From an uncultured virus (IMG/VR IMGVR_UViG_3300008267_009160) (Duplodnaviria; Heunggongvirae; Uroviricota; Caudoviricetes), in IMG/VR virus record IMGVR_UViG_3300008267_009160, positions 1-64,000 of that record: DNA of 64,000 nucleotides; one strand, written 5' to 3'. Below the pieces are notes generated by a model that saw only the letters and a list, made by a program, of their open reading frames with translations, was not told where the DNA came from and made no database searches. The position numbers and the translations under genes were made by a program. Of the stretch, positions 5,344-55,659 are shown in pieces (within the stretch, counting starts at the first letter, position 1; every line of letters starts with the position of its first letter).

Positions 5344-5345
5344 AT

Positions 5346-5975: not shown

Positions 5976-5976
5976 A

Positions 5977-6769: not shown

Positions 6770-6770
6770 A

Positions 6771-28804: not shown

Positions 28805-28910
28805 CAGCCAGGGGAGGAATCGAACCTCCACGCTTAAATTAAGCGGACACTAAAAGTGCCTGTGTATATCCTTCGGTAGTCATATGCCTACACGTTTTCA
28901 CCACCTAGCT
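28805..28910 (-). ncRNA. tRNA-like element with enlarged D-loop and atypical anticodon arm
   Basis: Acceptor AGCTAGG/CCTGGCT, T arm GGAGG-TTCGATT-CCTCC, variable arm CGCTTA/TAAGCG; 106 nt. Confidence 0.6.
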
Positions 28911-30653: not shown

Positions 30654-30725
30654 TAGTCTCACCAAGAATCGAACTTGGATCCACTGCTTAGAAGGCAGTT
30701 GTTCTATCCGTTGAACTATGAGACC
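30654..30725 (-). tRNA. tRNA-Arg(TCT)
   Basis: ACTGC-CTTCTAA-GCAGT; D loop contains GGA (A20). Confidence 0.93.
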
Positions 30726-31361: not shown

Positions 31362-31432
31362 TGGATGATACTGGAATCGAACCAGCGCTTCAAGAGTCGG
31401 AGTCTCGCGTCCTGCCATTAGACGAATCACCC
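31362..31432 (-). tRNA. tRNA with CCG (Arg) anticodon and atypical identity elements
   Basis: GGGTGAT/ATCATCC-A acceptor (G3:U70), CGAGA-CTCCGAC-TCTTG, C20 rather than A20. Confidence 0.85.
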
Positions 31433-31457: not shown

Positions 31458-31531
31458 TTGACCCTGCTGGACTCGAACCAGCTACCCGCAGATTATGAGT
31501 CTGCTGCTCTAACCTGGTGAGCTAAGGGTCA
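31458..31531 (-). tRNA. tRNA-Met or Ile2 (CAT)
   Basis: GCAGA-CTCATAA-TCTGC; canonical arms; not initiator-type. Confidence 0.9.
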
Positions 31532-31902: not shown

Positions 31903-31973
31903 TTACTCCGACTGGGCTCGAACCAGGAACTGCAGAATCAAAATCTGTCGTGTTACCATTACACCACGGAGCA
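31903..31973 (-). tRNA. tRNA-Gln(TTG)
   Basis: ACAGA-TTTTGAT-TCTGC; U1-A72. Confidence 0.92.
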
Positions 31974-32211: not shown

Positions 32212-32715
32212 CTACTTATTCAATATGTCAATGATCTTCTTCTTTATACCAGCTTCTTTCAGACCCTGGTTATCTTTAGTTCTAACAAACTTATCCCTTG
32301 CATCTCCCTTGTCTAATAGGTCTTTTAAGTCTAAGTCGTCTAGAATAACAAACTGTTTTAAATCAAAGTGATTAATGAAATCCAGCACTTCATTTGCTCG
32401 GTTTTTTTCGAGCCAAGAAAAGCTTACAGGTTTATTCTTTGTAACAGATCTTGGCATTTTATTAATACCGTTATGCTTAAAGATTTCAGCTAACTGAACT
32501 AATCCCCAATGGTGCCTCCAATCAGAACTTACTACAATCTCTGCTTCTGTTTCTTCTACTATTTCGTTTAGGATCTTAACGCATTTCTCATCGAAAGGAT
32601 AAGGTACTCCGAGTTCTTTTGCCCATTCGTATTTTTTCCAAAAGTTAACTCTATTCCTCATAAATTGCTCTTCTGTTGCTACTACTCCGTCGATGTCTAA
32701 AAAAATTACTTTCAT
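32212..32715 (-). CDS. HAD-family phosphatase (HAD_SAK_2, RNA-repair-associated type)
   Basis: IFLDIDGV, IVVSSDWR, FVILDDLD. Confidence 0.82.
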   Translation of the reverse strand: MKVIFLDIDGVVATEEQFMRNRVNFWKKYEWAKELGVPYPFDEKCVKILNEIVEETEAEIVVSSDWRHHWGLVQLAEIFKHNGINKMPRSVTKNKPVSFSWLEKNRANEVLDFINHFDLKQFVILDDLDLKDLLDKGDARDKFVRTKDNQGLKEAGIKKKIIDILNK

Positions 32716-33872: not shown

Positions 33873-35519
33873 TTAAAAACCCATTCCCATATCCATCATC
33901 CCAGATCCTTCCTTCTTTTCTTCTTTCTTGTTAAAGATTACGGATTCGGTTGTAAGGATCGTACCAGCCACAGAAGCAGCATTCTCGATCGCAATACGCA
34001 CTACCTTGGTCGGATCAAGCAATCCAGCTTCGAAAGCATCGACTACTTTACCAGCTTTGGCATCGTAGGTGCTGTTACTTAATCCGGACTGCATTACTTC
34101 TGTTGCAATTTCATGCCAGTTCTCAATACCTGCGTTAGCAAGGATTCTAACAAAAGGAGCTTTACATGCTCTTAGTAGAATTTGTTTACCGATATCTTCA
34201 CTGTAATCGCTACCAAGAGTAATATTGTCAACAGCTTTATTAACTGCTTTATACAGAGCAATACCTCCGCCTGATACGATTCCTTCATCAAGAGCTGCTC
34301 GGGTAGCAAATAGTGCATCCTCTACTCTATCTTTCTTTTCTTTTATTTCAAGTTCACTATTACCTCCAACTGAGATTACTGCTACACCTCCGACAAGCTT
34401 TCCGAGCCTCTCTTGTAGTTTTTCTTTGTCGTAGAAGGAAGCTGCTTTTTCGATCTGATCTTTAATGTCTAAAGCTCTTTGCTGAATAGCTTCTTTACTT
34501 CCAACTCCATCAACAATTGTTGTTTTTTCTTTTTCAACTGTTACAGTTCTAGCTTTACCTAAATACTGTTCAAGTACATTGGCGTTAATTTTATCTAGCT
34601 TATGTCCTTTATCTTTAGACAGTACTTGACCGCCTGTAATGATTGCTAGATCTTCAAGTGCTAAGGTTCTTCTTTCTCCGAACTCCGGTGCTTTTACTGC
34701 AACACCTCTTACAATACCTCTTGCTTTATTCACAATTAGGGTAGCTAGAGCTTCTCCGTCTATGTCTTCCGCAACAATTAAGAGAGGTTTATTCTCTGCA
34801 TTAGCTTTAGTCATTACAGGGAGTAATTCAGCTGCTGTTGTAATACGGCCGTCGTACATAAAAATATACGCATCTTCAAGAACAGCTTGCATAGTGTTAT
34901 TGTTCGTCACAAAGTAAGGAGATTTGTATCCTCTATCAAATTGCATACCTTCTACTGTCTCTAATTCAGTTTCACCGGTCTTACTCTCCTCGATAGCAAC
35001 TACTCCATCACGTCCAACTTTTTCAAGAGCTGTTGCGATTAAGTTTCCAATCATCTCATCGTTATTACCTGAGATAGTTGCAACTTGTTTAATCTGCTCT
35101 TCGGTATCTAGTTCTTTAGAGACTTCTTTTAGTGCAGCTACAATCTCTTTTACTGCTTTATCTATACCTCTTTTAACTGCAACAGGACTTACTCCCTGGT
35201 TAATTGCTTTCAAACCTTCTTCTACAATAGTTGCGGCAAGGAGAGTAGAAGTTGTTGTACCGTCTCCAGCTTCATTAGCTGACTTGATGGATACTTGTTT
35301 AACAAGTTGAGCACCGATATTTTCAACCTCGTCTTCGATTTGCGAGAAAGCCTTCGCAACAGTAACGCCGTCTTTAGTAACTTTAATTCCATTTACGTTA
35401 TCTTCAATTAATACTGTTCTACCACCAGGTCCTAGTGTTGATGAAACACTGTTGTTTAATTTCTGGATTCCTTTTAGTAGTTTGTTTTTTAATTCAATTC
35501 CAAATAAGCTGTCAACCAT
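33873..35519 (-). CDS. groEL: chaperonin GroEL
   Basis: TLGPGGR, VTKDGVTVAK, AGDGTTT, GMQFDRGY, GSGMMDMGMGF tail. Confidence 0.97.
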   Translation of the reverse strand: MVDSLFGIELKNKLLKGIQKLNNSVSSTLGPGGRTVLIEDNVNGIKVTKDGVTVAKAFSQIEDEVENIGAQLVKQVSIKSANEAGDGTTTSTLLAATIVEEGLKAINQGVSPVAVKRGIDKAVKEIVAALKEVSKELDTEEQIKQVATISGNNDEMIGNLIATALEKVGRDGVVAIEESKTGETELETVEGMQFDRGYKSPYFVTNNNTMQAVLEDAYIFMYDGRITTAAELLPVMTKANAENKPLLIVAEDIDGEALATLIVNKARGIVRGVAVKAPEFGERRTLALEDLAIITGGQVLSKDKGHKLDKINANVLEQYLGKARTVTVEKEKTTIVDGVGSKEAIQQRALDIKDQIEKAASFYDKEKLQERLGKLVGGVAVISVGGNSELEIKEKKDRVEDALFATRAALDEGIVSGGGIALYKAVNKAVDNITLGSDYSEDIGKQILLRACKAPFVRILANAGIENWHEIATEVMQSGLSNSTYDAKAGKVVDAFEAGLLDPTKVVRIAIENAASVAGTILTTESVIFNKKEEKKEGSGMMDMGMGF

Positions 35520-35531
35520 TTTTTATAAATT

Positions 35532-35828
35532 TTAATTTTCTGAAACAATGCCGATTACTTCTACAGTTTTACAGAGGAAATACTCATCACCTCCTAGTGT
35601 AACTCTCATACTACCTACTTTAGGAATAAGCAATTTGTCACCTACGTCGAACTTTGTTTGAACAAATTGACCGGTTTGAAAGTTATAAAAATCACTATAC
35701 GCGATTACTTCGCCAATAGCTGGTTTTTCTTTTCCTAGATCAGGAATAATAATGTTGCCTGCAAGGATCTCTTCCTCTTCTACAGGCTTGAGCAAAACGT
35801 ATCCGTTTAGCGGTTTTAATACACTCAT
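35532..35828 (-). CDS. groES: co-chaperonin GroES
   Basis: LKPLNGYVLL, AGNIIIPD.GKEKP; adjacent to groEL. Confidence 0.92.
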   Translation of the reverse strand: MSVLKPLNGYVLLKPVEEEEILAGNIIIPDLGKEKPAIGEVIAYSDFYNFQTGQFVQTKFDVGDKLLIPKVGSMRVTLGGDEYFLCKTVEVIGIVSEN

Positions 35829-35852
35829 ACTTTTATTTTTAATATAGTAAAA

Positions 35853-36044
35853 TTATTTCAGTTCTTCAACTATTTCTAACTCGGGAATAAGCTCTACAAA
35901 GTATATCATATCTTCCTTTCTCAAAGCCACGTCAGCACCTGTAAAGTATTTCCAGGCTTCAATATTAGGGTTATACTCTGCTTTAACTTTCTTTTTAAGA
36001 ATGTAGAGCTTGTCGTCGAACTTTATAAACTCGTTTCTAAACAT
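35853..36044 (-). CDS. hypothetical protein
   Basis: 63-aa ORF between hsp20 and groES. Confidence 0.6.
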   Translation of the reverse strand: MFRNEFIKFDDKLYILKKKVKAEYNPNIEAWKYFTGADVALRKEDMIYFVELIPELEIVEELK

Positions 36045-36074
36045 AGAGATAATGACAGGTCTTTTATGTGTAAC

Positions 36075-36476
36075 TTATTGTATTTGTACTTTCTTAGGTG
36101 CTCTCTCTTCAGCAAAAGGAATAGTTAATGTTAATAATCCTTTCTCTAGCTTTGCTTCAATTTTGCCAAGATCAAATTTAGTAGCTATTTTCCAAGCTAG
36201 GTCAAAAGAGCTTTTTTTAATTCCTCTGTAAATAGCAGTTTTTTCGTCGTCGGGTTTTTTATACCTAATACGGAGAATATCTCCTTCAGTTAAAATTTCA
36301 ATTTCCTCTTTATCGAGGCCTACTGCTGCTACTTCAATTGCAATACCTGTCGGTGTTTCGTAGATGTCTGTGGGATGGGAAACTTTCTGGTTAATTCCAG
36401 AAAAGTGGTTTGAGTCTTTAAACAGATCCTTCCATAGAAGGTCGAATTCGTCCAGTGTGAATGGTTTAAACGTCAT
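36075..36476 (-). CDS. small heat-shock protein (Hsp20)
   Basis: PTDIYE, EVAAVGLDKEEIEI, AKLEKGLLTLTIP. Confidence 0.92.
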   Translation of the reverse strand: MTFKPFTLDEFDLLWKDLFKDSNHFSGINQKVSHPTDIYETPTGIAIEVAAVGLDKEEIEILTEGDILRIRYKKPDDEKTAIYRGIKKSSFDLAWKIATKFDLGKIEAKLEKGLLTLTIPFAEERAPKKVQIQ

Positions 36477-39407: not shown

Positions 39408-40130
39408 TTAGCATTTATTTACTGCGTTTCTTACGTACATATAGAACTCCTCACGGCATTCTGGCTCGTTAAGGAATGCTCCGGAAAGCTTAGCTGTCTG
39501 CATAGAAGCACCTTGATGCTTAACTCCGCGGCATGATACACAACTATGTTTACTGTCTACAACCACCGCTACTCCTAGGTTATCTGGTATAACAGTATTC
39601 AGGGTATCAAAGATCTGCATAGTTAAATCTTCTTGAATCTGACCTCTTCTAGAATACTGTTCTACTATTCTGTTTAATTTAGAGAGTCCCATTACTTGCT
39701 TAGATTCTCCTGGTATGTAACCTACGTGACATACACCTAAAATCTGCTGATGGTGATGTGCGCATTGAGAGAATACCGGAATATTAGTCTCTACAATAAT
39801 ACCGTCGTAGTTCGAAGGAAAGGTTGTAATCTCACTCATAAGATCGTACCTACCTTTCCAGAGATCATTTACATAGGCCTTAGCTACGCGCTTAGGTGTA
39901 TTCTCACTATTCGGATCACTTTGCCAATTAACACCGAGGGCGTTTAGGAACTTACCGTAGTGGTGTGCTGCTTCAGTAATAATAGCATCTTTTTCTTCTG
40001 AGTTTAGAGAGCGATGCTCTCCTTTGTAAATTAAGTTTGCTAATTGAGTAGAAACTCCGTTAGCAAAACCTACTGTAGACTCTTCGAGTTTTTCAATATT
40101 AACTGTTAACGGTTTTTGCTTGTTGCTCAT
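39408..40130 (-). CDS. folE: GTP cyclohydrolase I
   Basis: TPKRVAK, SQCAHHH, GLSKLNR, QIQEDLT, HSCVSCRGV. Confidence 0.95.
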   Translation of the reverse strand: MSNKQKPLTVNIEKLEESTVGFANGVSTQLANLIYKGEHRSLNSEEKDAIITEAAHHYGKFLNALGVNWQSDPNSENTPKRVAKAYVNDLWKGRYDLMSEITTFPSNYDGIIVETNIPVFSQCAHHHQQILGVCHVGYIPGESKQVMGLSKLNRIVEQYSRRGQIQEDLTMQIFDTLNTVIPDNLGVAVVVDSKHSCVSCRGVKHQGASMQTAKLSGAFLNEPECREEFYMYVRNAVNKC

Positions 40131-40317
40131 ATTTCTTTAATTGTTCTTTTAATTTATCGATTTGTTCTTGAAGTTCCAACGTTTTTTGGGAATGCAAAGT
40201 AATTAATCCTACAATATTAACACTCACTACAGTTTCAAACTGAGTGAATCTGAACCATACGTAGGCTTGTGCACCACAGAGTGTTAGCAGTACTATTGTG
40301 AAGATGTCAAAGCTCAT
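40099..40317 (-). CDS. small membrane protein
   Basis: N-terminal hydrophobic helix plus coiled coil. Confidence 0.6.
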   Translation of the reverse strand: MSFDIFTIVLLTLCGAQAYVWFRFTQFETVVSVNIVGLITLHSQKTLELQEQIDKLKEQLKKYEQQAKTVNS

Positions 40318-40327
40318 TTATTTTGTT

Positions 40328-40699
40328 TTAATTTTTATCGTAACATTCTTTACATAATTGTCCTGCTCCTTCAACGTACCCGTACCTGAAGTTAATATTA
40401 ACATCGTAAGTGTAAGGAGTTTCTTTGCCGCAGATAATGCAATGCTCTATACTGTTAGAGTTTAACTCTCCTGGAACTTCAATACCCCAGCAGTTTGGGC
40501 CGCCGTCGTAAGTCATTCTCTTACTCCAAAGGTCCGGTGCTTTTCTCATAAAATAACCTAGGTCGTAGTTATTAGGAAGCAGTAGTGTAAGTCGTCTTAG
40601 AACCTCGTAGACATCTTCTGGTGTTTTAGCTTTTTTAAGCTTTTCTTCTAGGTTTGTAATAGCATTAAGAGTGTGCTGGTTAAAGGTGGGAGTATTCAT
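40328..40699 (-). CDS. hypothetical protein with C-terminal Zn finger
   Basis: CIICG...YVEGAGQLCKEC. Confidence 0.65.
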   Translation of the reverse strand: MNTPTFNQHTLNAITNLEEKLKKAKTPEDVYEVLRRLTLLLPNNYDLGYFMRKAPDLWSKRMTYDGGPNCWGIEVPGELNSNSIEHCIICGKETPYTYDVNINFRYGYVEGAGQLCKECYDKN

Positions 40700-40709
40700 A
40701 ATTAAACAT

Positions 40710-41573
40710 TTACTTTTCTAATTGTTGTATGTAGTTTAATAATCTGTCTTTAGGTGCCCATCCTAATCTTTCTACAGCATCACTATTAACACGTAAAGTC
40801 TTTCTATAATTACCTTGTTGCTCTGGGATGTTTATTGTTTCACATCCGAATTTATCGCAGAACATTTTAGCTACTTCGTTTACAGAGTAGTTACATCCTG
40901 TACCTAGCTCCCAAGCATCTTCATGCTTCTCATCAGACTCGGCAACTCTTATAAGCCCATCTACGATATCTTGAACGTGTGTGAAATCTCTACGTTGCTC
41001 TCCATCACCTACAATCGTCAGTTTCTCATTATTCTGAAGCTGTTTTCTCCACACCCCGATTACTGCAGCCATATGACTGTCTACTAGCTCACCAGGACCG
41101 TATACATTATAGAATCTAACGATTTCTGCGTTAAGCCCAAAACATTTAGTGCTCATCTTTATCCACTGCTCTCCCATGTACTTTGTCATAGCGTAGGGGG
41201 ATAATTCTGGGTTGTGGTGTTTAGATGATGATCCTGCGTATATAAGTTTAGCGCTTACTTTCAAAGCGTAATCAACTACCTGTCTAGTTCCCTCTACATT
41301 AGAGGTAAAAGTTTGTCTAGGTTGTGCAAAAGAAGGTTGAATTCTACTTAACGCGGCAAGATGAAAAATATACTTATAATTCTTTAAAGCAACATTTTCC
41401 ATGGCTCTTACATCACCTCCTAGGAAATTTGCACCTATCAGGTCAACATCCTTGGCTTCTTTTCCTATACTTAAATTATCTATTACATCGACATTATAGC
41501 CTCTGAGTAGAAGCTCTTTAGTTAGGGCATATCCTACAAAGCCACATCCTCCGGTTACTAGTACATTTTCCAT
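40710..41573 (-). CDS. NAD-dependent epimerase/dehydratase
   Basis: VTGGCGFVG, FHLAA, YAMTK, RFYNVYGP, GDGEQRRDFTHV. Confidence 0.9.
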   Translation of the reverse strand: MENVLVTGGCGFVGYALTKELLLRGYNVDVIDNLSIGKEAKDVDLIGANFLGGDVRAMENVALKNYKYIFHLAALSRIQPSFAQPRQTFTSNVEGTRQVVDYALKVSAKLIYAGSSSKHHNPELSPYAMTKYMGEQWIKMSTKCFGLNAEIVRFYNVYGPGELVDSHMAAVIGVWRKQLQNNEKLTIVGDGEQRRDFTHVQDIVDGLIRVAESDEKHEDAWELGTGCNYSVNEVAKMFCDKFGCETINIPEQQGNYRKTLRVNSDAVERLGWAPKDRLLNYIQQLEK

Positions 41574-41576
41574 AGT

Positions 41577-42413
41577 TTATACATTTAATGTTTTATTCCA
41601 AGCTGCAATATGCAAACGAGTTAATCCTCTAAAGCGGTATTTTTTAGCCATTTCAAGACAGAACTGAGTGCGTTCTTCAAAATCAGCTACATCGTCTAAT
41701 CCAGGCATACAAACTATATTCTTAAGAGGAATATTTAACGGAGTTACAAATTCTTCAAATATCTCCTTAACATCTTCTTCGGTACTGATAACGAATTTAA
41801 ACTGGTAGTTTTTATGCTCCATAATACGCTTAAGAGCTGCTTCATTAAAGCGTTGTGATTTAGTCATCCCCGAGTTTGCTAGCTTAGGAGAGCAATTAAT
41901 CTGGTCGAGCATTTTAAAGAGAGGTTCGTCAATATAGACTGTGCCGTTGGTTTCAATCTCGTAATACGGTCTGACAGTGTTATCGAGGTGTCTTGCAAGC
42001 CAGTAATTGGTAAAGTTAACGATTGATTGTTGATGTCCTTTTATTGTCGGTTCGCCGCCAGTCCAAATAATATGAACATTGCCATCTAGAATATCCTCGT
42101 AAACACCTTCTTCTTTCCATCGGTTAATTAGGTATTCGAATTCTTTATCTTCTCCTCTCCACAACCACTGGCTTGTACTATCACAAGTCCAGGTTGCTTT
42201 ACCTTCAGCATGTAAGTCTCCTATAAAGATTTCTCCATCTTCTAGCTTCTGCTCTTTAGCTAACATATTAGTGAATACTCTACTCATACCGCAAGTAAGG
42301 TTGCAGATACCTAAACGAACAAAGTAAGAAGGTATTCCCGAAGAGATGCCTTCACCTTGTATTGAGTAGAAGTCAGAGCTGATTAATAATTTTTTTGGAT
42401 CTATTTTACTCAT
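41577..42413 (-). CDS. queE: 7-carboxy-7-deazaguanine synthase (radical SAM)
   Basis: FYSIQGEG, RLGICNLTC with insertion before WTCDS, TGGEP, IETNG, SPKL. Confidence 0.9.
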   Translation of the reverse strand: MSKIDPKKLLISSDFYSIQGEGISSGIPSYFVRLGICNLTCGMSRVFTNMLAKEQKLEDGEIFIGDLHAEGKATWTCDSTSQWLWRGEDKEFEYLINRWKEEGVYEDILDGNVHIIWTGGEPTIKGHQQSIVNFTNYWLARHLDNTVRPYYEIETNGTVYIDEPLFKMLDQINCSPKLANSGMTKSQRFNEAALKRIMEHKNYQFKFVISTEEDVKEIFEEFVTPLNIPLKNIVCMPGLDDVADFEERTQFCLEMAKKYRFRGLTRLHIAAWNKTLNV

Positions 42414-42661
42414 AATTTACTTTTTTGTTCTTGTATAAATTGAAGATAAGGAATCCATTTTACATATGTAAGTTCTTCGTCTGGGAATCCTAATAGTATA
42501 TTGCCGGTTTCGTCTTTTGCTATCATAGTAAATCCGAAGCCTTCACATATCATATGAATTCCGTATTCAGGTTCTAGAGCTTCTGCTTCTTTTTCGATAT
42601 CGAAATCCCAAGGAAATTCCGGGTCATTTATTTCGCAGTATTGTTTACTAAACTCTGCCAT
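42410..42661 (-). CDS. hypothetical protein
   Basis: MAEFSKQYC...ICEGFG. Confidence 0.65.
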   Translation of the reverse strand: MAEFSKQYCEINDPEFPWDFDIEKEAEALEPEYGIHMICEGFGFTMIAKDETGNILLGFPDEELTYVKWIPYLQFIQEQKSKL

Positions 42662-42791
42662 TTGTAATCGTTTTTATATAATTTAAAACAAAACTAACAT
42701 TAGGCCATTCGGTTACTGCTGCAAAAAAACTAAGGTGTTTTTCTCCGCAGAGGCCTATTGCATGTTCTAAAGCGTGCAATACTTCGCTCAT
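42648..42791 (-). CDS. small hypothetical protein (47 aa)
   Basis: Hand-translated MSEVLHALEHAIGLCGEKHLSFF...; overlaps both neighbours' ends. Confidence 0.55.
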   Translation of the reverse strand: MSEVLHALEHAIGLCGEKHLSFFAAVTEWPNVSFVLNYIKTITNGRV

Positions 42792-43018
42792 CAGTCTTGT
42801 CTTTGTTTTTCTTTAATCTGCTTTCTACGAGCAGCTTTCTTAGAGATAGTCTTTTCTTTCTTCTGCTCTTGAACTTCTTGCTGTTCAGTTTTTTCTCGAG
42901 TTAAAGCTTTCCATTCGGATTTAGCTACATACTGCCATTCTCTGCCTACCATGTTGTAAGCTTGTTGATCTGTAACACGGATAATGTTTCCGGTCTTTTC
43001 GCTTTTTAAACACTTCAT
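42791..43018 (-). CDS. hypothetical basic protein
   Basis: 75-aa ORF. Confidence 0.65.
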   Translation of the reverse strand: MKCLKSEKTGNIIRVTDQQAYNMVGREWQYVAKSEWKALTREKTEQQEVQEQKKEKTISKKAARRKQIKEKQRQD

Positions 43019-43041
43019 TGGTTATTCCTCCATGTTTTAGG

Positions 43042-43560
43042 TTATAGAAATTTTGAAATTTGACTTAGACGCTCTTCTACCGTGCCTCTTAGTACCACTA
43101 CTTTTTCTTCTGGGATATGTTGCTTTATAAATTGTATGATAATATCGTCAATCTTACTTTGTAATTCTTGCCAAGCTCCACCGGGCCTACCTTCATCTAT
43201 AACATAACCAAACTCAATAGGTATGTAAAAAAAGTACTCTACCCGGTCTTTAGTTTCCTCAAACAAATTTATAATTCCTTCAACATCTACATCGGGTGCT
43301 AGTATTTGAGAGTATATAATACAGTCAATTACGCTTCGAGTACTAATTACGTTCTTATGAGTAAGGTAATTCTGATATGCCCAAGCAGAAAGTTCGTTAA
43401 TTACGTATTGCTGTTCGTCGAGAGAAAAATCTAACGATTTAGCAATCTTAGTTACCGGCCTTGAAAATCCATCTGTAACATAGTAATCTGGATAGTGCTT
43501 AGCAACTTCCTTAAGCAGAGTACTTTTGCCTACTCCGTGAGCTCCTAGTAGTATTTTCAT
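43042..43560 (-). CDS. P-loop nucleotide kinase-like (AAA_28/NadR type)
   Basis: GAHGVGKST, TRSVIDC, LRGTVEER. Confidence 0.78.
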   Translation of the reverse strand: MKILLGAHGVGKSTLLKEVAKHYPDYYVTDGFSRPVTKIAKSLDFSLDEQQYVINELSAWAYQNYLTHKNVISTRSVIDCIIYSQILAPDVDVEGIINLFEETKDRVEYFFYIPIEFGYVIDEGRPGGAWQELQSKIDDIIIQFIKQHIPEEKVVVLRGTVEERLSQISKFL

Positions 43561-43587
43561 TAAGTCTTTTGTTAAAGATAAGCTTTA

Positions 43588-44190
43588 TTATTGGAACTGC
43601 CAAACTTTAGTAAAGAAATATTTCCAAGATTCTAAGGAAGTTCTCCTCAGTAATGCATAAGCATGATCCGCATTAATAGTTATATTCTTTGTCCTAACCT
43701 CAGCTACTACTCTACCGGAATCTAATTGTGGGATTACTTCATGTATAACACTACCGCAGTCCGGATAGTCTGCTTGCTTTCCAGCAATTGCTTCTTGCAT
43801 ATTAAATCCTTTTAACTCAGGATACTTAGTTATAAGAGCAGGATGTCCATTGTAGATACTACCTGCGTATCGACCAAAAAACCCTGCTGGAATTATTCTC
43901 AAGTAACCGTGTAGTGTTATAAGTTTCTTGCTCAACAAAGTTTTACTTAGGTAGTCTTCTAAGACAGGCTTAAACGGTATAATCATTATGTCTACCTCAT
44001 TCTGCTTAAATATCTCCAGGTTTTCTGCTGTTATCTTACCTAGGTTATTGGTTACAACAAGACTGGGGAGATACCCAATCTCTTTACTTATAGCTATTAC
44101 TTCAGATCCAGTTTGAGAAATAAGTACTCCCCAGCTTTCTTGCTTTTTCATATTACTGTCCCATTGCTTTTTTAGTGTATACTTTTGCAT
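43588..44190 (-). CDS. PurN-like formyltransferase (candidate DpdN)
   Basis: LHGYLRII, NGHPALI, GSVIHEV...LDSG; true start probably MKKQES. Confidence 0.82.
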   Translation of the reverse strand: MQKYTLKKQWDSNMKKQESWGVLISQTGSEVIAISKEIGYLPSLVVTNNLGKITAENLEIFKQNEVDIMIIPFKPVLEDYLSKTLLSKKLITLHGYLRIIPAGFFGRYAGSIYNGHPALITKYPELKGFNMQEAIAGKQADYPDCGSVIHEVIPQLDSGRVVAEVRTKNITINADHAYALLRRTSLESWKYFFTKVWQFQ

Positions 44191-45067
44191 CGATTAATGC
44201 TTGTGGTATTAAATCCAGCCTAGTAGCACGTACAGGGTTGATATCTAAAGATCCTCTTCTAGAATACAGTAACATTACAACACAATCTTTTACTTGAGGA
44301 ACACTCGTTAGAGCTGTAAACAGCTTTTCACTACAAAATTCATGAAACTCATTAACTTCCCTCAAGGCTATAACCTCTTTTAATAAGGATTGTAAATCTA
44401 AAATACCACCCTCAGTTTTAATGTGAAAATAAGCTGCTCCAGTATCTTTCTGCTTAGTATGTCGACATCTAGAACGTAGTGCGTTAGTGAAAACTTTAAA
44501 CTCACTGCCATGCCCTTCTTTTATTTTAAAATGAAAATTCTCGGCAGTATAGTCTGTTATCTCCATTTTCTCTAGCTTTTCATCGCCGATATAACCTTCC
44601 AGTAGCCTGTATCCTGAAGCTGGATCTGCTTCTACTAGTACGTCAAGCTCATCACCAGGTCTAAAGAATCCAACTTCAACCGGAGCTTGAATAGCTTCTG
44701 AAATATCATGTTTAACTTGAGCTTCATATGCTGCGATTGCTTCTTTAATGGTACCTCCCATCTTACACATATCAAAAGTATTCAAGTAAAGTTTAAAAGA
44801 TTTAGACTCTACCATAAACTCTGATGATGCAGGATATACAATTTTTAAAGTTCCAGCTACAGGAAGTCCGTTGTTAAGTAGGAAAGTAGCTTCGTGACAA
44901 TGCCATGTATCGTATCCTACAAACTCGTCCCCTTTAATGCCCCAATCTTCTCTAGCTAGCTTTCTAGGCATCGGCACTAGGAAAGAAGAATCAAATTTAT
45001 CTGTTGTGATTGCGTAACTGCCCTGTTGACCTAGGTGCTTACTTGCAATGTCGTTCATTCCACTCAT
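44153..45067 (-). CDS. queF: NADPH-dependent preQ0 reductase (two-domain type)
   Basis: VESKSFKLYLN, LRSRCRHTKQKDTG, EFHEFC, YSRRGSLDINPVR. Confidence 0.9.
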   Translation of the reverse strand: MSGMNDIASKHLGQQGSYAITTDKFDSSFLVPMPRKLAREDWGIKGDEFVGYDTWHCHEATFLLNNGLPVAGTLKIVYPASSEFMVESKSFKLYLNTFDMCKMGGTIKEAIAAYEAQVKHDISEAIQAPVEVGFFRPGDELDVLVEADPASGYRLLEGYIGDEKLEKMEITDYTAENFHFKIKEGHGSEFKVFTNALRSRCRHTKQKDTGAAYFHIKTEGGILDLQSLLKEVIALREVNEFHEFCSEKLFTALTSVPQVKDCVVMLLYSRRGSLDINPVRATRLDLIPQALIDAKVYTKKAMGQ

Positions 45068-45873
45068 AGTTTTTTTCCTTTTATAATTTGACGAATAGTT
45101 AAGACGTTATGTGAGATAGATCTCATTTGATCTGGAGTTATTGTTCTATCCAGGTTATCGGCAAGCTTCTCTTTAGGTTTAGGTTTGTCTGTTCCTCCCC
45201 AGCTAAAGTTAATATCGTTCCAGCCGTATACAATAGGTGCAGAAGAATCTACAGAGTAGATAAGTTCTTTATCCTCTTTTGTATAGAGTACATACTCGGA
45301 ATAATTTTGAAGACCTAAGAGATGCACCTGTAAGTGATTATCCTTCAATACGTTCTTCATATGCTGAAAGACAATATAACGTATGTTATGGTAGTCTGTG
45401 CCTGGAATGGTATCGTAAGGCATAGCTACGATCTCAATTGCTGGGCATTGTCTTTTCCAGTAGGTAATCTCGTTAAGAGATTTGTATAGCTCTCCCATAT
45501 TGGTACCTTGTATAACAGCAATAAGCTTGAAAGGTATTCTATGTAAGCTTCCATATCTGTTTTCTAAAAACGAAAGGAATGCTTTTAAGAACTCGATAGT
45601 TTTATCACAATCGTTAACCCAGTCGGGAACTACTACATGGGTAGGTTTAACGCGTTCTGCTGCTTCAATTAAGATTTCAAAATCAACAGATTTTCCTAAT
45701 TCAAAAGCACTATTATCTAAAATAGAAAAAGTTGCATTTTTACACTTTCTAATATAGAAGTCTGTATACTCTTGATCTTGTCCAATCAAGTGAGCTAGCA
45801 CATAAGGGTAGTCGTTAATAAGGTCGTGAATAGGAAATAACTGCTTTGGAATTTCGTGGCTAATTAAGGTCAT
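45064..45873 (-). CDS. TGT/DpdA-like 7-deazaguanine transglycosylase-family protein
   Basis: ILDNSAFELG, AVIQG, VHLLG, SVDSS; lies between queC and queF. Confidence 0.7.
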   Translation of the reverse strand: MTLISHEIPKQLFPIHDLINDYPYVLAHLIGQDQEYTDFYIRKCKNATFSILDNSAFELGKSVDFEILIEAAERVKPTHVVVPDWVNDCDKTIEFLKAFLSFLENRYGSLHRIPFKLIAVIQGTNMGELYKSLNEITYWKRQCPAIEIVAMPYDTIPGTDYHNIRYIVFQHMKNVLKDNHLQVHLLGLQNYSEYVLYTKEDKELIYSVDSSAPIVYGWNDINFSWGGTDKPKPKEKLADNLDRTITPDQMRSISHNVLTIRQIIKGKKL

Positions 45874-45879
45874 TTTATT

Positions 45880-46740
45880 TTATTTTTGATATTCTGCTAA
45901 TACTTTTTCAACATGCTCTTTAGCTACAGTCCATTTTACAGGCCCAGTTTCGTCAGCATAAGCTACAGGATCAGGACGACCTAGCTTAATAAATGCTTCA
46001 ATACGCTCTACTGATGCTGCTGATTTATAGTCTGAATACCAGTCTAATTCAGTACTAGCATTTGTTGCGAAAGAGATCGGCTTGTAGCTGGTATTAGTAC
46101 GTTTATATACTTCGTTAAAATCTAAACCTAGTGCTTCGCAGCATTCTTCTCCATCTTTTAAAATATCAAATTTATTTAGTTCAAGATAAGGAGTATAGTG
46201 TGATACTAAATGCGAATCCCAATTACCAATTTTAAATGCTTCAAAATCAGCATCACGAAACTCTTGTCTACAATCAGGATAAATTGCATGATCGCCGGCA
46301 TGTATTCCCATTGCAATAACTACCTCTTGACCTACAGCACAATCATCTGTAATCGTTTTTGTTGCAATTGAAAGTGCTACTGCTTGAATAAGTGAAGCAA
46401 AGATTTTATTACGGTTAGGAACAACGGTATCTTTCATATTGTCCTGCTCATAATGTCCTTCTGGAACATCCCATCCTCCTTCTACGAGAGCAGAATTAAG
46501 GAGTTTTGTTATTCCGTCAATTTTAATAACCTGATGTCTTACAAAATTGTCTGTTTTTGTAAAAAACATTTTATCGTTAATATAACCCACTAGGGATTTA
46601 GCTCTTTCTAATTCGACTTTATGCTTTTGGCCATAGTCAAAACTAAGAGCTGTTACTTCGTAGCCGTTAGCTAGAAGGTGTAAAAGGAGAGTAGAGGAAT
46701 CCATTCCTCCTGAAAGGCTGAGAACTGCTTGCTTTTTCAT
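45880..46740 (-). CDS. queC: 7-cyano-7-deazaguanine synthase
   Basis: SLSGGMDSS, FDYGQKH, VVPNRN, YPDCR. Confidence 0.93.
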   Translation of the reverse strand: MKKQAVLSLSGGMDSSTLLLHLLANGYEVTALSFDYGQKHKVELERAKSLVGYINDKMFFTKTDNFVRHQVIKIDGITKLLNSALVEGGWDVPEGHYEQDNMKDTVVPNRNKIFASLIQAVALSIATKTITDDCAVGQEVVIAMGIHAGDHAIYPDCRQEFRDADFEAFKIGNWDSHLVSHYTPYLELNKFDILKDGEECCEALGLDFNEVYKRTNTSYKPISFATNASTELDWYSDYKSAASVERIEAFIKLGRPDPVAYADETGPVKWTVAKEHVEKVLAEYQK

Positions 46741-46784
46741 CTTTTAAAGTATATTGTTTGAGGAAGTATTTACTTATTAAACGC

Positions 46785-46985
46785 TTACTCCTCGTTCAAG
46801 CGTTGCATTTTATCTTTAAATTCTTCTTCTGTTAAATCTCTATAAGTAGGTCCTAAACCGTAATCCATATCTACAAGCACCCAGTCATTCTGAATTAAAA
46901 ACCGGTCGTTGTGTTTTTCGTTCCATTCATATTCTACAAAAACTAAATACTCTTCGTAAGTCTTAAAAGGAAGTTGTTGTGTCAT
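46785..46985 (-). CDS. hypothetical protein
   Basis: 66-aa acidic ORF. Confidence 0.6.
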   Translation of the reverse strand: MTQQLPFKTYEEYLVFVEYEWNEKHNDRFLIQNDWVLVDMDYGLGPTYRDLTEEEFKDKMQRLNEE

Positions 46986-46986
46986 A

Positions 46987-47433
46987 TTAGAATAATTGTC
47001 TTATAAGATAATTACTATTTACCGGTAAAGCAAATAAATCTTTATTTTTACCACATAGTTTAAAGTTTCGACCTTTAACGTAGTTTCTCATTTCGTTAAG
47101 ATCGTAAATGTAGCAATGATTATTGTCTAGATCGTAGGTAAGTATGCTATCGGCCTTGGAGGTATAAAACCATCCGAGAGTACCGGTTGGGTGTTTAATT
47201 ACTTCTAAGAAAGTAAATCCGTTCCTAATGTTAGTTTTAATATCTGCACGATCCCATTCTTGGGTACGTTTATTAAAAACTTCTACGTCAAAACCTTTCT
47301 TTTGCTTAAACTTATACTCTTGGTAATCGGTATAGTCTTTTAGTTCTATACCTCTCTCTAAAAGCTGTTCAATAACATTAACTTCACCTGCTCTACCTTT
47401 TTTGTAAGCTTGGGTACTTTCAAACTTATTCAT
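46987..47433 (-). CDS. PD-(D/E)XK-like endonuclease
   Basis: Likely start MNKFES; GRAGE, GFDVEV, ADIKTN, FLEV, GWFYTSKAD. Confidence 0.65.
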   Translation of the reverse strand: MNKFESTQAYKKGRAGEVNVIEQLLERGIELKDYTDYQEYKFKQKKGFDVEVFNKRTQEWDRADIKTNIRNGFTFLEVIKHPTGTLGWFYTSKADSILTYDLDNNHCYIYDLNEMRNYVKGRNFKLCGKNKDLFALPVNSNYLIRQLF

Positions 47434-47446
47434 AACTGTTTTATTT

Positions 47447-47911
47447 TTAATTTTCGTAAGTAGCGCTATTTCTTTCGTTTTCTCTAAACTCAACCTTTAC
47501 TACCTTAACTCTACCTTCTGTTTCTTCTTGTACGAAAGCATTTACTTTTTCAAAAACAAATTTAGCAAATTGCTCTGCTCCTACAGCAGGAAGCTCTCTC
47601 AGCTGTATAACTCCTAAATGATCCATAGTTCTAAATCCGTTAATACCCGGGTCATCTTGTGCTACCAATGTTGTATGGTCAAACATATAATCCATCCAAA
47701 CTTTAGGATTTTTACCATCTATAGTTCCTTTAGCTCGCTTCATGCCTCCAAAATCCCAAACCCAATTACGCTCATCTAATTCACCTTCGAACCAAATCTT
47801 AAAAGATACTCCATATCCATGTAAATACTTACAGTGCGTTCCTTCTGCTTTCCACTGCCTGAATACACAGCTATATCCGTCGAATACTTTTGCTGATGAA
47901 AACTTTGCCAT
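47447..47911 (-). CDS. queD: 6-carboxy-tetrahydropterin synthase
   Basis: HCKYLHGY, WVWDFGG, FDHT, FRENERNSA. Confidence 0.9.
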   Translation of the reverse strand: MAKFSSAKVFDGYSCVFRQWKAEGTHCKYLHGYGVSFKIWFEGELDERNWVWDFGGMKRAKGTIDGKNPKVWMDYMFDHTTLVAQDDPGINGFRTMDHLGVIQLRELPAVGAEQFAKFVFEKVNAFVQEETEGRVKVVKVEFRENERNSATYEN

Positions 47912-47931
47912 ATATTTTACTTTATTTTAAT

Positions 47932-48468
47932 TTAAGACTTTAATGTCAAATCTTCAACTCCTCTCTCCTCCTCAAAACTAACAGGGTAGTTCTTTACTAA
48001 ATGTGAAGGAGGAGCTTGCCGGACAGGTGTGTATTGAGAAGATATCTGCTGATATAAATCTAAAAGCGTACCATCGAAGTCTTCCATGAGTTGCTCTAGT
48101 ACTTCTTTAGCTATTCTAGTCGACTTGGTTACTTGCTTTTTAAAGTCTTCAAGACGAGTAGCTTCATCTTTATGATAATCTTCCATAAGCCTTCTATACT
48201 TTTCCATGTAAAGGCTTTCTATCTCTCTTCGTTTTTCTAAATCCTGCACCCCTACCTGCCTATCTTCTAACTCATACAAAGCGTATTGAGCCATCCAATA
48301 ATATGGAGAGTGGTCAAAATCACCGTTTTTTATCTTATCAGGAATAGGAGCGTAAGGATGTAAGGTATCCTTAACTTTGCAGTTTCGCCACCATTGAAAA
48401 CGGTTATACTTTATCCGAACAAGTTCAGATAGTTTTTGCTCGATAAAAGGTCTTGGATGACGTATCAT
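47932..48468 (-). CDS. hypothetical protein
   Basis: 178-aa ORF with its own promoter motif. Confidence 0.7.
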   Translation of the reverse strand: MIRHPRPFIEQKLSELVRIKYNRFQWWRNCKVKDTLHPYAPIPDKIKNGDFDHSPYYWMAQYALYELEDRQVGVQDLEKRREIESLYMEKYRRLMEDYHKDEATRLEDFKKQVTKSTRIAKEVLEQLMEDFDGTLLDLYQQISSQYTPVRQAPPSHLVKNYPVSFEEERGVEDLTLKS

Positions 48469-48484
48469 ACCTAAATATAACTAC

Positions 48485-50513
<2,029 letters not shown>

Positions 50514-54732: not shown

Positions 54733-55581
54733 TTAGAACGGAAGGTCATTACCGGGAGTATCTTCTTTAAAAAGATCATCGAACTCTTTATCGATATCCG
54801 GCTTTTGTTTTACGTTTAGAGAATACTTACTGTTCTTAGGAGCAGCAGGCTGTGCTGTTGCTGGAGCTGGTGTTTCAGTCTCTTCCTCTTCTTCTGTAGC
54901 TTCAGTACTACCGGGGTTCAACCATTCGTAAAGACCTTGCTTAAGTTCTTCGTATGTCGGCTTTCTGTACAGCTCAATCGGATCTGGTTGTGTTTCAAGC
55001 CAGACTTTAAGCTGTTTAGCATCTTCAGAAGCAGGAGTTTGTTTAGTCTTAACACGAACTGAAGTCTTGTTAAACTGACGTCCGCTCTGATCAGGACCTA
55101 CTGTCTCTACGATAAGATCGCGACCTTGGTAAGTATCGGTGTAATCTCCTACATCTTCGTCTTCTGCTACAGCAAGAAGCTCCATATAAACCTCTTTACC
55201 GAATTCCCAAAGACGTACGCCCTTGTCTTCTTCGCCTCTAACGATAACTGGTGCAAATACTCTCATCTTCGGTTCTAGCTTTTTAGCTAGTTTAAAATTC
55301 TCAACCGTGTAAGTTTGCTTTTTCAAGCTTTCTGAAAACTCTACGATTGGGTCTTTCTCTCCGAAGTTAACAAGAGAGATCATAGTACGGTTGTTAATAC
55401 CGTAGTGGAAAAAGACTTCCTTAAAAGGATTTTCTTTATTCCATTTGGCAGGAAGCATCCTTACCTGGAATTTGCCAATTGGCGCTTTCCAAATTGACTC
55501 AGCGATCTTGCTTTTGCCACCGCCACCGCGGGTTTGCAAGCTGGCCAATTTTTGCTTAATTAAACTTACGTTCATAGCCAT
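54733..55581 (-). CDS. single-stranded DNA-binding protein (gp32-like)
   Basis: VRMLP...NPFKEVFFHY, LWEFGKEVY, acidic tail ending DLPF. Confidence 0.82.
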   Translation of the reverse strand: MAMNVSLIKQKLASLQTRGGGGKSKIAESIWKAPIGKFQVRMLPAKWNKENPFKEVFFHYGINNRTMISLVNFGEKDPIVEFSESLKKQTYTVENFKLAKKLEPKMRVFAPVIVRGEEDKGVRLWEFGKEVYMELLAVAEDEDVGDYTDTYQGRDLIVETVGPDQSGRQFNKTSVRVKTKQTPASEDAKQLKVWLETQPDPIELYRKPTYEELKQGLYEWLNPGSTEATEEEEETETPAPATAQPAAPKNSKYSLNVKQKPDIDKEFDDLFKEDTPGNDLPF

Positions 55582-55659
55582 TTTGATGTATTTTAAAATT
55601 AAAAGTGAACATATATCTTAAACTAAGATAATGAAAAAAATGATAACAGCCAACTTTTT

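What the first reader, a model, noticed from the sequence alone, without database searches (positions are those of the whole stretch)
31362..31432. tRNA with Arg(CCG) anticodon but alanine acceptor identity and Glu-like D arm
Seen: acceptor G1-C72, G2-C71, G3:U70 with A73; anticodon CCG; position 20 is C; the D arm (TTCGTCTAATGGCAGGACG) and 4-nt variable loop resemble the nearby tRNA-Glu. Known: G3:U70 is the main AlaRS determinant and A20 is a major ArgRS determinant. Inference: it may be charged with Ala and mistranslate or reassign CGG, which should be rare in this AT-rich phage, or it may act as a decoy.
Basis: partly seen in the sequence, partly recalled or inferred. Interest (0 to 1): 0.72.

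Follow-up and report, generated by a model that had tools for sequence, protein, structure and literature searches.

The report
Phage tRNA: alanine end, arginine anticodon
A freshwater phage carries a well-conserved tRNA that should read the arginine codon CGG but has the complete signature for being loaded with alanine, so it probably puts alanine where arginine is meant, for a purpose still unknown.

Summary
On the minus strand at 31362-31432 lies a canonical 71-nt tRNA (Rfam 58.6 bits). It has anticodon CCG, G1-C72, G2-C71, G3:U70, A73 and C20, with a Glu/Gln-type D arm and a 4-nt variable loop.

It is not an error. Three phage lineages whose shared proteins are about 51-58% identical keep all seven acceptor pairs, A73 and the anticodon loop, while the T, anticodon and D stems change by compensation. 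Acceptor stems of neighbouring tRNAs do vary. The same 7-bp stem occurs in two genuine phage tRNA-Ala(UGC) genes. Its T stems give EF-Tu affinities typical of tRNA-Ala, not tRNA-Gln.

Reassignment of CGG is not supported. CGG is the rarest codon (23 credible sites in 181 kb). Those sites align with R, R, R, K and Q in relatives, never with A. CGG also alternates with AGA/CGA in repeat units. Its rarity is compositional.

Best reading (about 0.5): a chimeric, alanine-accepting CGG decoder that is neither codon supply nor a new code. Its purpose is open: host-directed mistranslation, stall rescue or decoy. Charging is untested.

I found no published phage example in four full-text searches. Earlier notes of this scan report other alanine-type phage tRNA-like genes on other DNA.

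The parts
31362..31432 (-). 71-nt tRNA with anticodon CCG, Ala-type acceptor stem (G1-C72, G2-C71, G3:U70, A73), C20, Glu/Gln-type D arm, 4-nt variable loop and no encoded CCA
   Evidence: ARAGORN; Rfam 58.6 bits; sequence; cloverleaf is the MFE fold; conserved in G002 and G006
31426..31432 (-). 5' strand of the acceptor stem (GGGUGAU); G3 is the complement of 31430
   Evidence: identical in all three lineages and in two real tRNA-Ala(UGC) genes
31362..31369 (-). 3' strand of the acceptor stem plus discriminator (AUCAUCC A); U70 is the complement of 31365 and A73 of 31362
31398..31400 (-). anticodon CCG (+ strand reads CGG) inside the loop CUCCGAC
   Evidence: the anticodon is invariant in all 9 aligned family members, and the full loop CUCCGAC in 8 of 9 (d_L013 has A at position 38)
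31414..31414 (-). position 20 is C, so the main bacterial ArgRS determinant A20 is absent; relatives have C or U here
   Evidence: identity rule from PMC9976931 passages
30654..30725 (-). the phage's tRNA-Arg(UCU), an internal control that carries A20 and U3-A70
   Evidence: body identity 38/58
31903..31973 (-). tRNA-Gln(UUG); its acceptor end (U1-A72, G2.U71, C3-G70, A73) matches that of the CCG tRNAs of the L001/L003 group
   Evidence: body identity 39/57
32212..32715 (-). ORF just upstream of the tRNA cluster with an HAD domain of 'Swiss Army Knife' RNA-repair proteins (context only)
   Evidence: Pfam PF18143, E 6.5e-26

Best explanation
This is a functional, selected, chimeric tRNA. It joins an alanine-type acceptor stem to a Glu/Gln-type body and an arginine (CCG) anticodon. 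Inferred mechanism: host RNase P/Z and the CCA-adding enzyme mature it. Host AlaRS reads only the acceptor end, so it loads the tRNA with alanine. ArgRS charges it poorly because A20 is missing. EF-Tu delivers it, and it places Ala at CGG codons in competition with the host's tRNA-Arg(CCG). It is not there to supply a much-used codon, and it does not define a new code for the phage, whose few CGG codons are arginine sites. The benefit is unknown. The options I rank highest are mistranslation aimed at host (or defence) proteins, which the CGG-poor phage largely escapes, and keeping ribosomes moving at CGG when the host's decoder is scarce or attacked. Shown here: the gene, its fold, the conservation of its identity set, and the way CGG is used. 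Inferred: charging, delivery and purpose.
For: (1) The tRNA has the universal Ala set G1-C72, G2-C71, G3.U70, A73. The review passages say this set is conserved in all known non-mitochondrial tRNA-Ala, and that G3.U70 transplanted into tRNA-Tyr confers alanine acceptance (PMC9976931). G3:U70 is called 'sufficient for AlaRS recognition' in PMC11415595. (2) Selection acts on the acceptor end. G002 and G006 share proteins only 51-58% identical with this phage, yet they keep 7/7 + 8/8 acceptor and discriminator bases. In G002 the orthologous Leu-TAA, Leu-TAG and Met tRNAs keep only 5/7+6/8, 6/7+7/8 and 5/7+6/8. The other stems of the CCG tRNA change by compensation (T stem GCUGG/CCAGU, ACAGG/CCUGU, AUGGG/CCCAU; 27:43 C-G to U-A). 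(3) A scan of IMG/VR for this exact stem returned 7 loci: 5 are this tRNA and 2 are true tRNA-Ala(UGC) genes; none is of another isotype. (4) Under the Schrader-Uhlenbeck T-stem model the three tRNAs score -10.2, -9.7 and -10.6 kcal/mol (mean -10.17). Class means are Ala -10.0 to -10.3, Arg-CCG -9.5 and Gln-CUG -8.9. Six relatives without G3:U70 average -9.38. Eight other tRNAs of the window deviate from their class means by 0.29 on average. (5) A20 is absent (C/U20), while the phage's tRNA-Arg(UCU) has it. (6) It is not codon supply. CGG is the rarest codon in all three lineages (34/55,443; 4/14,572; 1/1,795). The other tRNAs mostly read A-ending codons that the phage uses heavily. In G006 it is the only tRNA called in the 6.3-kb locus around it, and the only one above the Rfam cut-off in the whole 48.9-kb record.
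Against: No charging or expression data exist, and no RNA run was listed. CGG sites in phage genes align with R, R, R, K and Q in relatives and never with A (5 of 15 non-repeat sites could be aligned). In the repeat context PTQT_X_TQTP, CGG (5 units) alternates with AGA/CGA/AGG (18 units) and never with Ala codons (0 of 41). So Ala insertion would be an error at the phage's own sites. Carriers show no extra avoidance of CGG: its share of the CGN box is 5.6% in G001, 3.8% in G006 and 5.8% in the immuto phage, which lacks the tRNA. C35, G36, A73 and G2-C71 are ArgRS determinants, so some arginylation is possible. Host ArgRS rules are unknown, as the host is only guessed to be Bacteroidota. The EF-Tu difference from Arg-CCG is only about 1.2 sigma. 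The strict conservation of the anticodon across the wider family could reflect recognition by a protein rather than decoding. Two complete relatives (G007, G008) lack the tRNA.
Confidence: 0.5

Rival explanations
1. It is still (mainly or partly) an arginine tRNA. ArgRS recognises C35, G36 and A73 well enough without A20, so it reads the phage's rare CGG codons as Arg, for example in late fibre genes. G3:U70 then adds at most a second (dual) identity.
For: CGG sites look like Arg sites. Eight of the 23 credible CGG codons lie in two large repeat proteins. C35, G36, A73 and G2-C71 are listed bacterial Arg determinants. A phage tRNA-Arg(CCG) with A20 (L029) shares the D stem and has the same T arm as G002. 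Double-identity tRNAs are known (tRNA-Tyr with G3.U70).
Against: A20 is described as the strongest E. coli determinant and the first recognition step, and it is C/U here. ArgRS does not explain the perfect conservation of all seven acceptor pairs, including a wobble pair that any C70 mutation would 'repair'. The T stems are about 0.7 kcal/mol tighter than the Arg-CCG class mean. Contig L013 carries both an A20 Arg-type CCG tRNA and an A20-less family member, which suggests different roles.
Confidence: 0.2
2. It is loaded with alanine but is not used for decoding. It could be a private alanine donor for a tRNA-dependent transferase. Alternatively it could be a decoy or sponge for a host factor that recognises the Arg anticodon loop or the Ala acceptor end, such as an anticodon nuclease or an acceptor-stem toxin.
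For: Its codon is almost absent from the phage. The phage invests in RNA repair: an HAD_SAK_2 gene beside the tRNA cluster and an Rnl1-like ligase, kinase and phosphoesterase elsewhere. Earlier notes of this scan list several alanine-type, anticodon-less tRNA-like genes in phages (unchecked leads).
Against: No Fem-type, aminoacyl-PG-synthase, L/F-transferase or aaRS family was found among 199 ORFs at E <= 1e-5. The anticodon loop and a normal 5-bp anticodon stem are strictly kept. The T stems predict normal, not weak, EF-Tu binding for an Ala-tRNA, unlike known non-ribosomal donors.
Confidence: 0.17
3. It is charged with Glu or Gln through its Glu/Gln-type body, so that CGG is read as Glu or Gln, as proposed for Gln in Peptacetobacter.
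For: U11-A24, U13-G22, no residue 47, A37 and G10 are present (rules). The best matches of the body are phage tRNA-Gln genes. Family members sit next to tRNA-Gln(CUG) genes with a one-base-different loop. One CGG site aligns with Q.
Against: U35, a strong determinant for both GluRS and GlnRS, is C here. 1:72 is a strong G-C pair and 73 is A. The acceptor end is Ala-type rather than Gln-type, unlike its U1-A72 relatives.
Confidence: 0.08
4. It is a decaying tRNA gene or an assembly artefact with no function.
For: The fold energy alone is not unusual (z -0.56). Two complete relatives lack it.
Against: It scores 58.6 bits as a tRNA. Compensatory changes keep 97.9% of cells paired across 9 family members, with 0 of 500 shuffles as good. 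It is the most conserved of the four tRNAs shared with G002 (89%). The same sequence types recur in independent assemblies.
Confidence: 0.03

Closest known systems
tRNA-Ala with non-alanine anticodons, and G3:U70 variants of other tRNAs (yeast CUG-Ala clade tRNA-Ala(CAG); human tRNA-Ala anticodon variants; tRNA-Pro/Cys/Thr/Gly G3:U70 mutants) - PMC11415595 passages; PMC5389508 and PMC12084884 seen as search listings only
   Same: An alanine acceptor identity is combined with an anticodon for another amino acid. AlaRS ignores the anticodon, so Ala is expected at the 'wrong' codon.
   Different: Those are cellular (eukaryotic) genes, mostly tRNA-Ala bodies with a changed anticodon or point mutants. 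Here a phage gene has a non-Ala body and a full Ala-type stem, and it is conserved across diverged lineages.
tRNA-ProX family of Streptomyces/Kitasatospora (dual-identity bacterial mistranslators) - PMC11415595 section 17 passages
   Same: Natural, conserved bacterial-type tRNAs whose identity elements and anticodon disagree.
   Different: Those have Pro identity, A34/A33 oddities and (recalled) a dedicated ProRS paralogue. Here the loop is canonical, no synthetase gene was found in the phage, and AlaRS needs no partner.
CGG reassignments in low-GC bacteria (Peptacetobacter CGG to Gln; Anaerococcus, RFN20 Bacilli and Absconditabacteria CGG to Trp) - PMC8629427 passages
   Same: A rare CGG in an AT-rich genome, with a tRNA(CCG) lacking A20 and carrying marks of another amino acid. 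[quoted passage not shown]
   Different: There the reassigned codon aligns with the new amino acid at conserved sites. Here CGG aligns with Arg/Lys and never Ala.
Ordinary phage tRNA-Arg(CCG) (for example the second CCG tRNA of L013 and that of L029)
   Same: Anticodon loop, phage tRNA cluster context, and in L029 the same D stem.
   Different: Those have A20 and no G3:U70.

Membership tests
tRNA (Rfam RF00005) | Cloverleaf covariance-model score at or above the gathering cut-off (29 bits) | tested here: met
   58.6 bits, full length 1-71, no non-standard pairs flagged
tRNA-Ala (acceptor identity) | G3:U70 wobble pair | tested here: met
   kept in G002, G006 and all 4 metagenome hits
tRNA-Ala (acceptor identity) | G1-C72, G2-C71 and discriminator A73 | tested here: met
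   rule from PMC9976931
tRNA-Ala (acceptor identity) | Alanine anticodon NGC and a tRNA-Ala-like body | tested here: not met
   The anticodon is CCG. Body identity to two phage tRNA-Ala genes is 55-60%, against 71% to phage tRNA-Gln(CUG). AlaRS does not require either feature.
tRNA-Ala (acceptor identity) | Aminoacylation with alanine by AlaRS | not testable with these tools
   Needs an in vitro or in vivo charging assay
Bacterial tRNA-Arg | A20 in the D loop (strongest determinant) | tested here: not met
   C20 here, C or U in relatives; rule
Bacterial tRNA-Arg | C35, G/U36, A/G73 | tested here: met
Bacterial tRNA-Arg | C3-G70 (minor determinant listed in Table 1 of PMC9976931) | tested here: not met
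   G3:U70
tRNA-Glu (E. coli identity set) | U34 U35 C36 anticodon; U11-A24, U13-G22:A46, no residue 47 | tested here: not met
   The D-arm features U11-A24 and U13-G22 and the 4-nt variable loop are present. The anticodon is CCG and position 46 is G.
tRNA-Gln (E. coli identity set) | Weak 1:72 pair, U35, G36, G10 | tested here: not met
   G1-C72 and C35 are present; G36 and G10 fit
Sense-codon reassignment (Codetta-type evidence) | The codon aligns with the new amino acid at conserved positions of homologues | tested here: not met
   5 alignable sites give R, R, R, K, Q. The Gmd site aligns with V/K in solved homologues. In the repeat context there are 18 other Arg codons and 0 Ala codons.
Dual-identity mistranslator tRNAs (tRNA-ProX type) | Identity elements of one amino acid with the anticodon of another, conserved in a clade | tested here: met
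Dual-identity mistranslator tRNAs (tRNA-ProX type) | Demonstrated misincorporation | not testable with these tools
   Needs mass spectrometry of a CGG reporter

The most novel reading that the evidence does not exclude
Phages deploy tRNAs whose anticodon and loading signal are deliberately mismatched. This one is an alanine-loaded CGG reader that the CGG-poor phage can afford. It would corrupt newly made host (or defence) proteins, or free ribosomes stalled at CGG when the host's arginine tRNA is attacked. It belongs to a wider, phage-only family of CCG tRNAs without A20, found in 17 IMG/VR loci; the D-arm plus CCG-loop motif gave no tRNA in one genome each of 185,579 bacterial and archaeal species. 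In that family the acceptor end has been swapped between Gln-like and Ala-type forms.
Probability: 0.25. Interest if true: 0.88.

Novelty: new variant of a known kind. Interest (0 to 1): 0.68.

Why it matters
Natural tRNAs that mistranslate on purpose are known from a few cellular lineages: yeast CUG clades, Streptomyces tRNA-ProX and human variants. I found no description of a virus-encoded one. Four full-text searches returned none, and a 2024 review of tRNA-based mistranslation contains the word 'phage' zero times. These searches cover only the held library. If the tRNA is alanylated and used, it would be a new kind of phage tool acting on the genetic code itself. It would also give a compact, portable Arg-to-Ala decoder for one rare codon. 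If it is arginylated despite lacking A20 and carrying G3:U70, it would show that synthetase rules in its host differ from the textbook ones. Either result can be obtained with simple charging and reporter assays.

Tried and rejected
- Near-identity search of the tRNA cluster against cultured phages: no match.
- Scan of one genome per bacterial and archaeal species for the D-arm plus CCG-loop pattern: 2 hits, neither a tRNA.
- Gmd CGG site: it aligns with V/K/V/K in solved homologues, which is uninformative.
- CGG codons of the L006 group looked Q-rich, but they sit in what are probably wrong-frame readings of repeats, so I dropped them.
- Special avoidance of CGG: rejected. In-frame CGG is rare (8, against 109 and 407 in the other frames), but its share of the CGN box equals the G-ending share of other four-fold boxes and equals that of a relative without the tRNA.
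- A conserved programmed CGG site: none of the alignable CGG sites is CGG in another lineage. Only 30% of G006 and 5% of G002 are available.
- An 'EF-Tu-excluded alanine donor' idea: not supported by the T-stem model.
- GroEL-linked synteny: 34 relatives' loci hold one tRNA (Met) and no CCG tRNA. Five larger relatives have no copy, only a 17-base T-arm match.
- Expression: no RNA holder was listed.
- Population variants: of the 40 variant places shown, none falls inside 31362-31432, but 36 further rows were not shown, so this is only weak support.
- Metagenome scan with an acceptor-independent body pattern: 4 hits, all of the three known sequence types.
- tRNAscan-SE isotype models could not be run.

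Full report
WHAT IS THERE. The window is a 99.993% identical piece (5 mismatches in 74,185 bases) of a 180,934-base IMG/VR phage contig that CheckV rates complete (G001).

The phage is a T4-like myovirus with gp23-type capsid, portal, sheath and baseplate genes. It also carries GroEL/GroES/Hsp20, a set of 7-deazaguanine synthesis genes, many glycosyltransferases, a TonB-receptor-like outer-membrane protein and RNA-repair genes.

Its closest cultured relatives by large terminase are Flavobacterium phage immuto (54%) and Microcystis phage Mel-JY01 (49%). The nearest bacterial clusters of its TonB-receptor-like protein are mostly Bacteroidota. A Bacteroidota host is therefore a reasonable guess, not a result.

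Near-identical DNA occurs in freshwater, lagoon and soil metagenomes of about ten studies.

Ten tRNA genes lie on the minus strand, and the complete genome has the same ten. Most read A-ending codons that the phage uses heavily: TTA, CTA, AGA, GAA, CAA, CCA and ACA. The exception in terms of demand is the tRNA at 31362-31432.

The tRNA scores 58.6 bits on the Rfam tRNA model with every pair standard. The cloverleaf is its minimum-energy fold, although the energy itself is unremarkable (z -0.56).

Read:
- acceptor stem GGGUGAU/AUCAUCC, giving G1-C72, G2-C71, G3:U70, U4-A69, G5-C68, A6-U67, U7-A66
- discriminator A73
- D arm UC-GUCU-AAUGGCA-GGAC with C at position 20
- anticodon loop CUCCGAC
- a 4-nt variable loop
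- no encoded CCA

The phage's tRNA-Arg(UCU) has A20. None of the other nine tRNAs has G3:U70.

According to the passages I read in the Giegé-Eriani review (PMC9976931):
- The bacterial arginine set is A20 (the strongest determinant), C35, U/G36 and A/G73, with G2-C71 and C3-G70 also listed.
- G1-C72, G2-C71, G3.U70 and A73 are conserved in all known non-mitochondrial tRNA-Ala.
- Putting G3.U70 into tRNA-Tyr gives a tRNA that accepts both amino acids.

So this tRNA has the whole alanine set. For arginine it has the anticodon half but not the D-loop half.

IT IS SELECTED, NOT AN ERROR. Pattern scans of IMG/VR and a protein-anchored search found the same gene in two further lineages. These are G002 (a 7.8-kb contig) and G006 (a 48.9-kb contig). 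Their shared proteins are only 51-58% identical to this phage's.

All three lineages keep the seven acceptor pairs, A73 and the anticodon loop unchanged. Elsewhere they differ, mostly by compensation:
- T stem GCUGG/CCAGU, ACAGG/CCUGU, AUGGG/CCCAU
- pair 27:43 C-G or U-A
- D stem GUCU/GGAC or GUUU/AGAC

As a control I compared the three other tRNAs shared with G002. Leu-TAA, Leu-TAG and Met are 71-78% identical and all have changed acceptor pairs. The CCG tRNA is 89% identical with 15 of 15 acceptor and discriminator bases kept.

I aligned nine members of the wider family. 97.9% of cells pair, 14 of 21 pairs show double changes, and 0 of 500 shuffles reach the covariation score.

A body-based pattern that ignores the acceptor stem found four more copies in metagenome contigs. 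All carry the same stem.

In four runs from four studies, contigs that differ from the window at 15-20 places near the gene show no listed difference inside it. However, 36 rows of that table were not shown.

In G006 it is the only tRNA that ARAGORN calls in the 6.3-kb locus around it. It is also the only one above the Rfam cut-off in the whole 48.9-kb record.

WHERE THE PARTS COME FROM. The tRNA body (positions 8-62) matches annotated tRNA-Gln genes best among cultured phages, up to 83.6%. It is 71% identical to phage tRNA-Gln(CUG) genes and 55-60% identical to tRNA-Ala bodies.

In IMG/VR the same D arm and CCG loop occur in 17 loci. Apart from the three lineages above, most of these tRNAs start with U1-A72. 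Some share the first three pairs and A73 with this phage's own tRNA-Gln(UUG). Two sit next to a tRNA-Gln(CUG) whose loop differs by one base, CUCUGAC against CUCCGAC.

One contig (L013) carries such a tRNA beside an ordinary A20-bearing tRNA-Arg(CCG). Another phage (L029) has an A20-bearing tRNA-Arg(CCG) with the same D stem, so an arginine-type ancestor cannot be excluded.

The pattern is absent from tRNAs of one genome each of 185,579 bacterial and archaeal species: there were 2 chance hits and no tRNA.

A scan for the exact acceptor stem with any body gave 7 loci. Five are this tRNA and two are genuine tRNA-Ala(UGC) genes of other phages. So real alanine tRNAs use this stem.

IS IT BUILT TO BE USED ON THE RIBOSOME WITH ALANINE? 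I applied the published three-base-pair T-stem model of EF-Tu binding (PMC3239215, sections 5, 9, 10 and 11 read).
- The three tRNAs come out at -10.2, -9.7 and -10.6 kcal/mol (mean -10.17).
- Class means are -10.0 to -10.3 for Ala, -10.3 to -10.4 for Glu, -9.5 for Arg-CCG and -8.9 to -9.1 for Gln.
- Six family members without G3:U70 average -9.38.
- Eight other tRNAs of this window fall within 0.29 kcal/mol of their class means on average. The ninth has a pair the model does not cover.

The shift is in the direction expected for a body that now carries a weakly bound amino acid such as alanine. It argues against an EF-Tu-excluded carrier. The effect is modest, about 1.2 sigma from Arg-CCG.

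WHAT CGG MEANS IN THE PHAGE. CGG is the rarest sense codon in all three lineages: 34 of 55,443 in G001, 4 of 14,572 in G006 and 1 of 1,795 in G002. In G001, 11 of the 34 lie in doubtful plus-strand ORFs. That leaves 23 credible sites: 15 ordinary ones and 8 in two Thr-X repeat proteins.

Five of the 15 ordinary sites could be aligned with a relative at E <= 1e-6. The partners are R (Mel-JY01, RNA ligase), R (immuto), R and K (G006) and Q (immuto), with no A. The Gmd site aligns with V or K in solved homologues.

In the repeat context PTQT_X_TQTP there are 41 units. X is CGG in 5, another Arg codon in 18, and Pro, Ser, Asn or Thr in 18. It is never an Ala codon.

So the coding sequences treat CGG as arginine, and reassignment is not supported.

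CGG is also not specially avoided. Its share of the CGN box is 5.6% in G001 and 3.8% in G006. This matches the G-ending share of other four-fold boxes (4-14%) and the 5.8% of phage immuto, which has no such tRNA. No CGG site is conserved as CGG between lineages, so a programmed site is unlikely within the DNA available.

HOW IT MOST LIKELY WORKS. Shown: a conserved, canonical tRNA gene with a complete alanine acceptor set, a CCG anticodon and no A20, in phages that barely use CGG and use it as arginine.

Inferred: host AlaRS, which reads the acceptor end only, alanylates it. EF-Tu then delivers it, and it inserts Ala at CGG in competition with the host's arginine tRNA.

Because demand from the phage's own genes is negligible and those sites want arginine, the selected benefit must lie elsewhere. 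I rank the options as follows:
- Mistranslation aimed at host or defence proteins. The CGG-poor phage largely escapes it, and its own chaperonins might buffer it.
- Keeping ribosomes moving at CGG if the host decoder is scarce or cleaved. The RNA-repair genes hint at tRNA-directed defence.
- A decoy or non-ribosomal role.

None of these is tested. The main rival is that ArgRS of the unknown host still charges the tRNA, alone or together with AlaRS.

COMPARISON AND NOVELTY. It works like the known anticodon/identity-mismatched tRNAs: yeast tRNA-Ala(CAG), human tRNA-Ala anticodon variants and G3:U70 mutants, and Streptomyces tRNA-ProX (PMC11415595 passages). It recalls the A20-less tRNA(CCG) of CGG-reassigned bacteria (PMC8629427 passages).

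It differs in four ways:
- It is viral.
- It carries an Ala stem on a non-Ala body.
- It needs no dedicated synthetase; none was found among 199 ORFs.
- It is not accompanied by a change in how the codon is used.

I found no published phage case. The searches cover only the held library, and supplements were not consulted.

Earlier AI notes of this scan describe other alanine-type phage tRNA-like genes, mostly without anticodons, on other DNA. I used them only as a lead. The one check I made, for a Fem-like partner, was negative.

Noticed in passing
window 28805-28910 (-): A weak tRNA-like element (27.3 bits, below the cut-off) with a Leu-like acceptor stem and T arm. It has a 29-nt insertion in the D loop and a broken anticodon arm, and it is also present in G001. 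It may be a decayed or interrupted tRNA-Leu.
   Followed up: partly
window 32212-32715 (-); L032:6295-8495 (G001 46292-48495): RNA-repair genes. An HAD domain of 'Swiss Army Knife' RNA-repair proteins lies directly upstream of the tRNA cluster. Elsewhere there is an Rnl1-like RNA ligase followed by an AAA_33 kinase and a metallophosphoesterase. Together they suggest that the host attacks tRNAs.
   Followed up: partly
L013:294-473: One IMG/VR contig carries two CCG tRNAs 30 bases apart. One is an A20-less U1-A72 family member and the other is an ordinary A20 tRNA-Arg(CCG), which argues that the two kinds do different jobs.
   Followed up: no
L021:265-421; L025:214-367; L001-L010: A phage-only family of CCG tRNAs without A20 and with Gln-like acceptor ends (U1-A72, A73). 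Two of them sit next to tRNA-Gln(CUG) genes whose anticodon loop differs by one base. What amino acid they carry is unclear.
   Followed up: partly
L038:13727-18885 and L030:3647-7054 (G001 173724-178885, 3644-7054): Three very large proteins are made largely of Thr-X repeats (TPTQTPTNT...). They hold 8 of the 23 credible CGG codons. Given the many glycosyltransferase genes, they may be glycosylated fibres.
   Followed up: partly
window 31458-31531 (-): The tRNA with anticodon CAT has C4-G69 and C5-G68. ATA is the phage's most used Ile codon (658 of 1,544). It may therefore be a lysidine-type tRNA-Ile2 rather than tRNA-Met. The determinant rule is recalled, not checked.
   Followed up: no
window 33873-36476 (-): GroEL, GroES and an Hsp20 small heat-shock protein are encoded in a row about 2 kb from the tRNA cluster.
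   Followed up: no
window 39411-47911 (-): A 7-deazaguanine pathway: GTP cyclohydrolase I, QueE-like, QueF-like, QueC and PTPS/QueD. It is probably used for DNA modification.
   Followed up: no
L032:15109-17361 (G001 55109-57361): A phage-encoded TonB-dependent-receptor-like outer-membrane barrel (Plug + OMP_b-brl_3). Its own Atlas cluster is 99% viral, and the nearest bacterial clusters are mostly Bacteroidota.
   Followed up: partly
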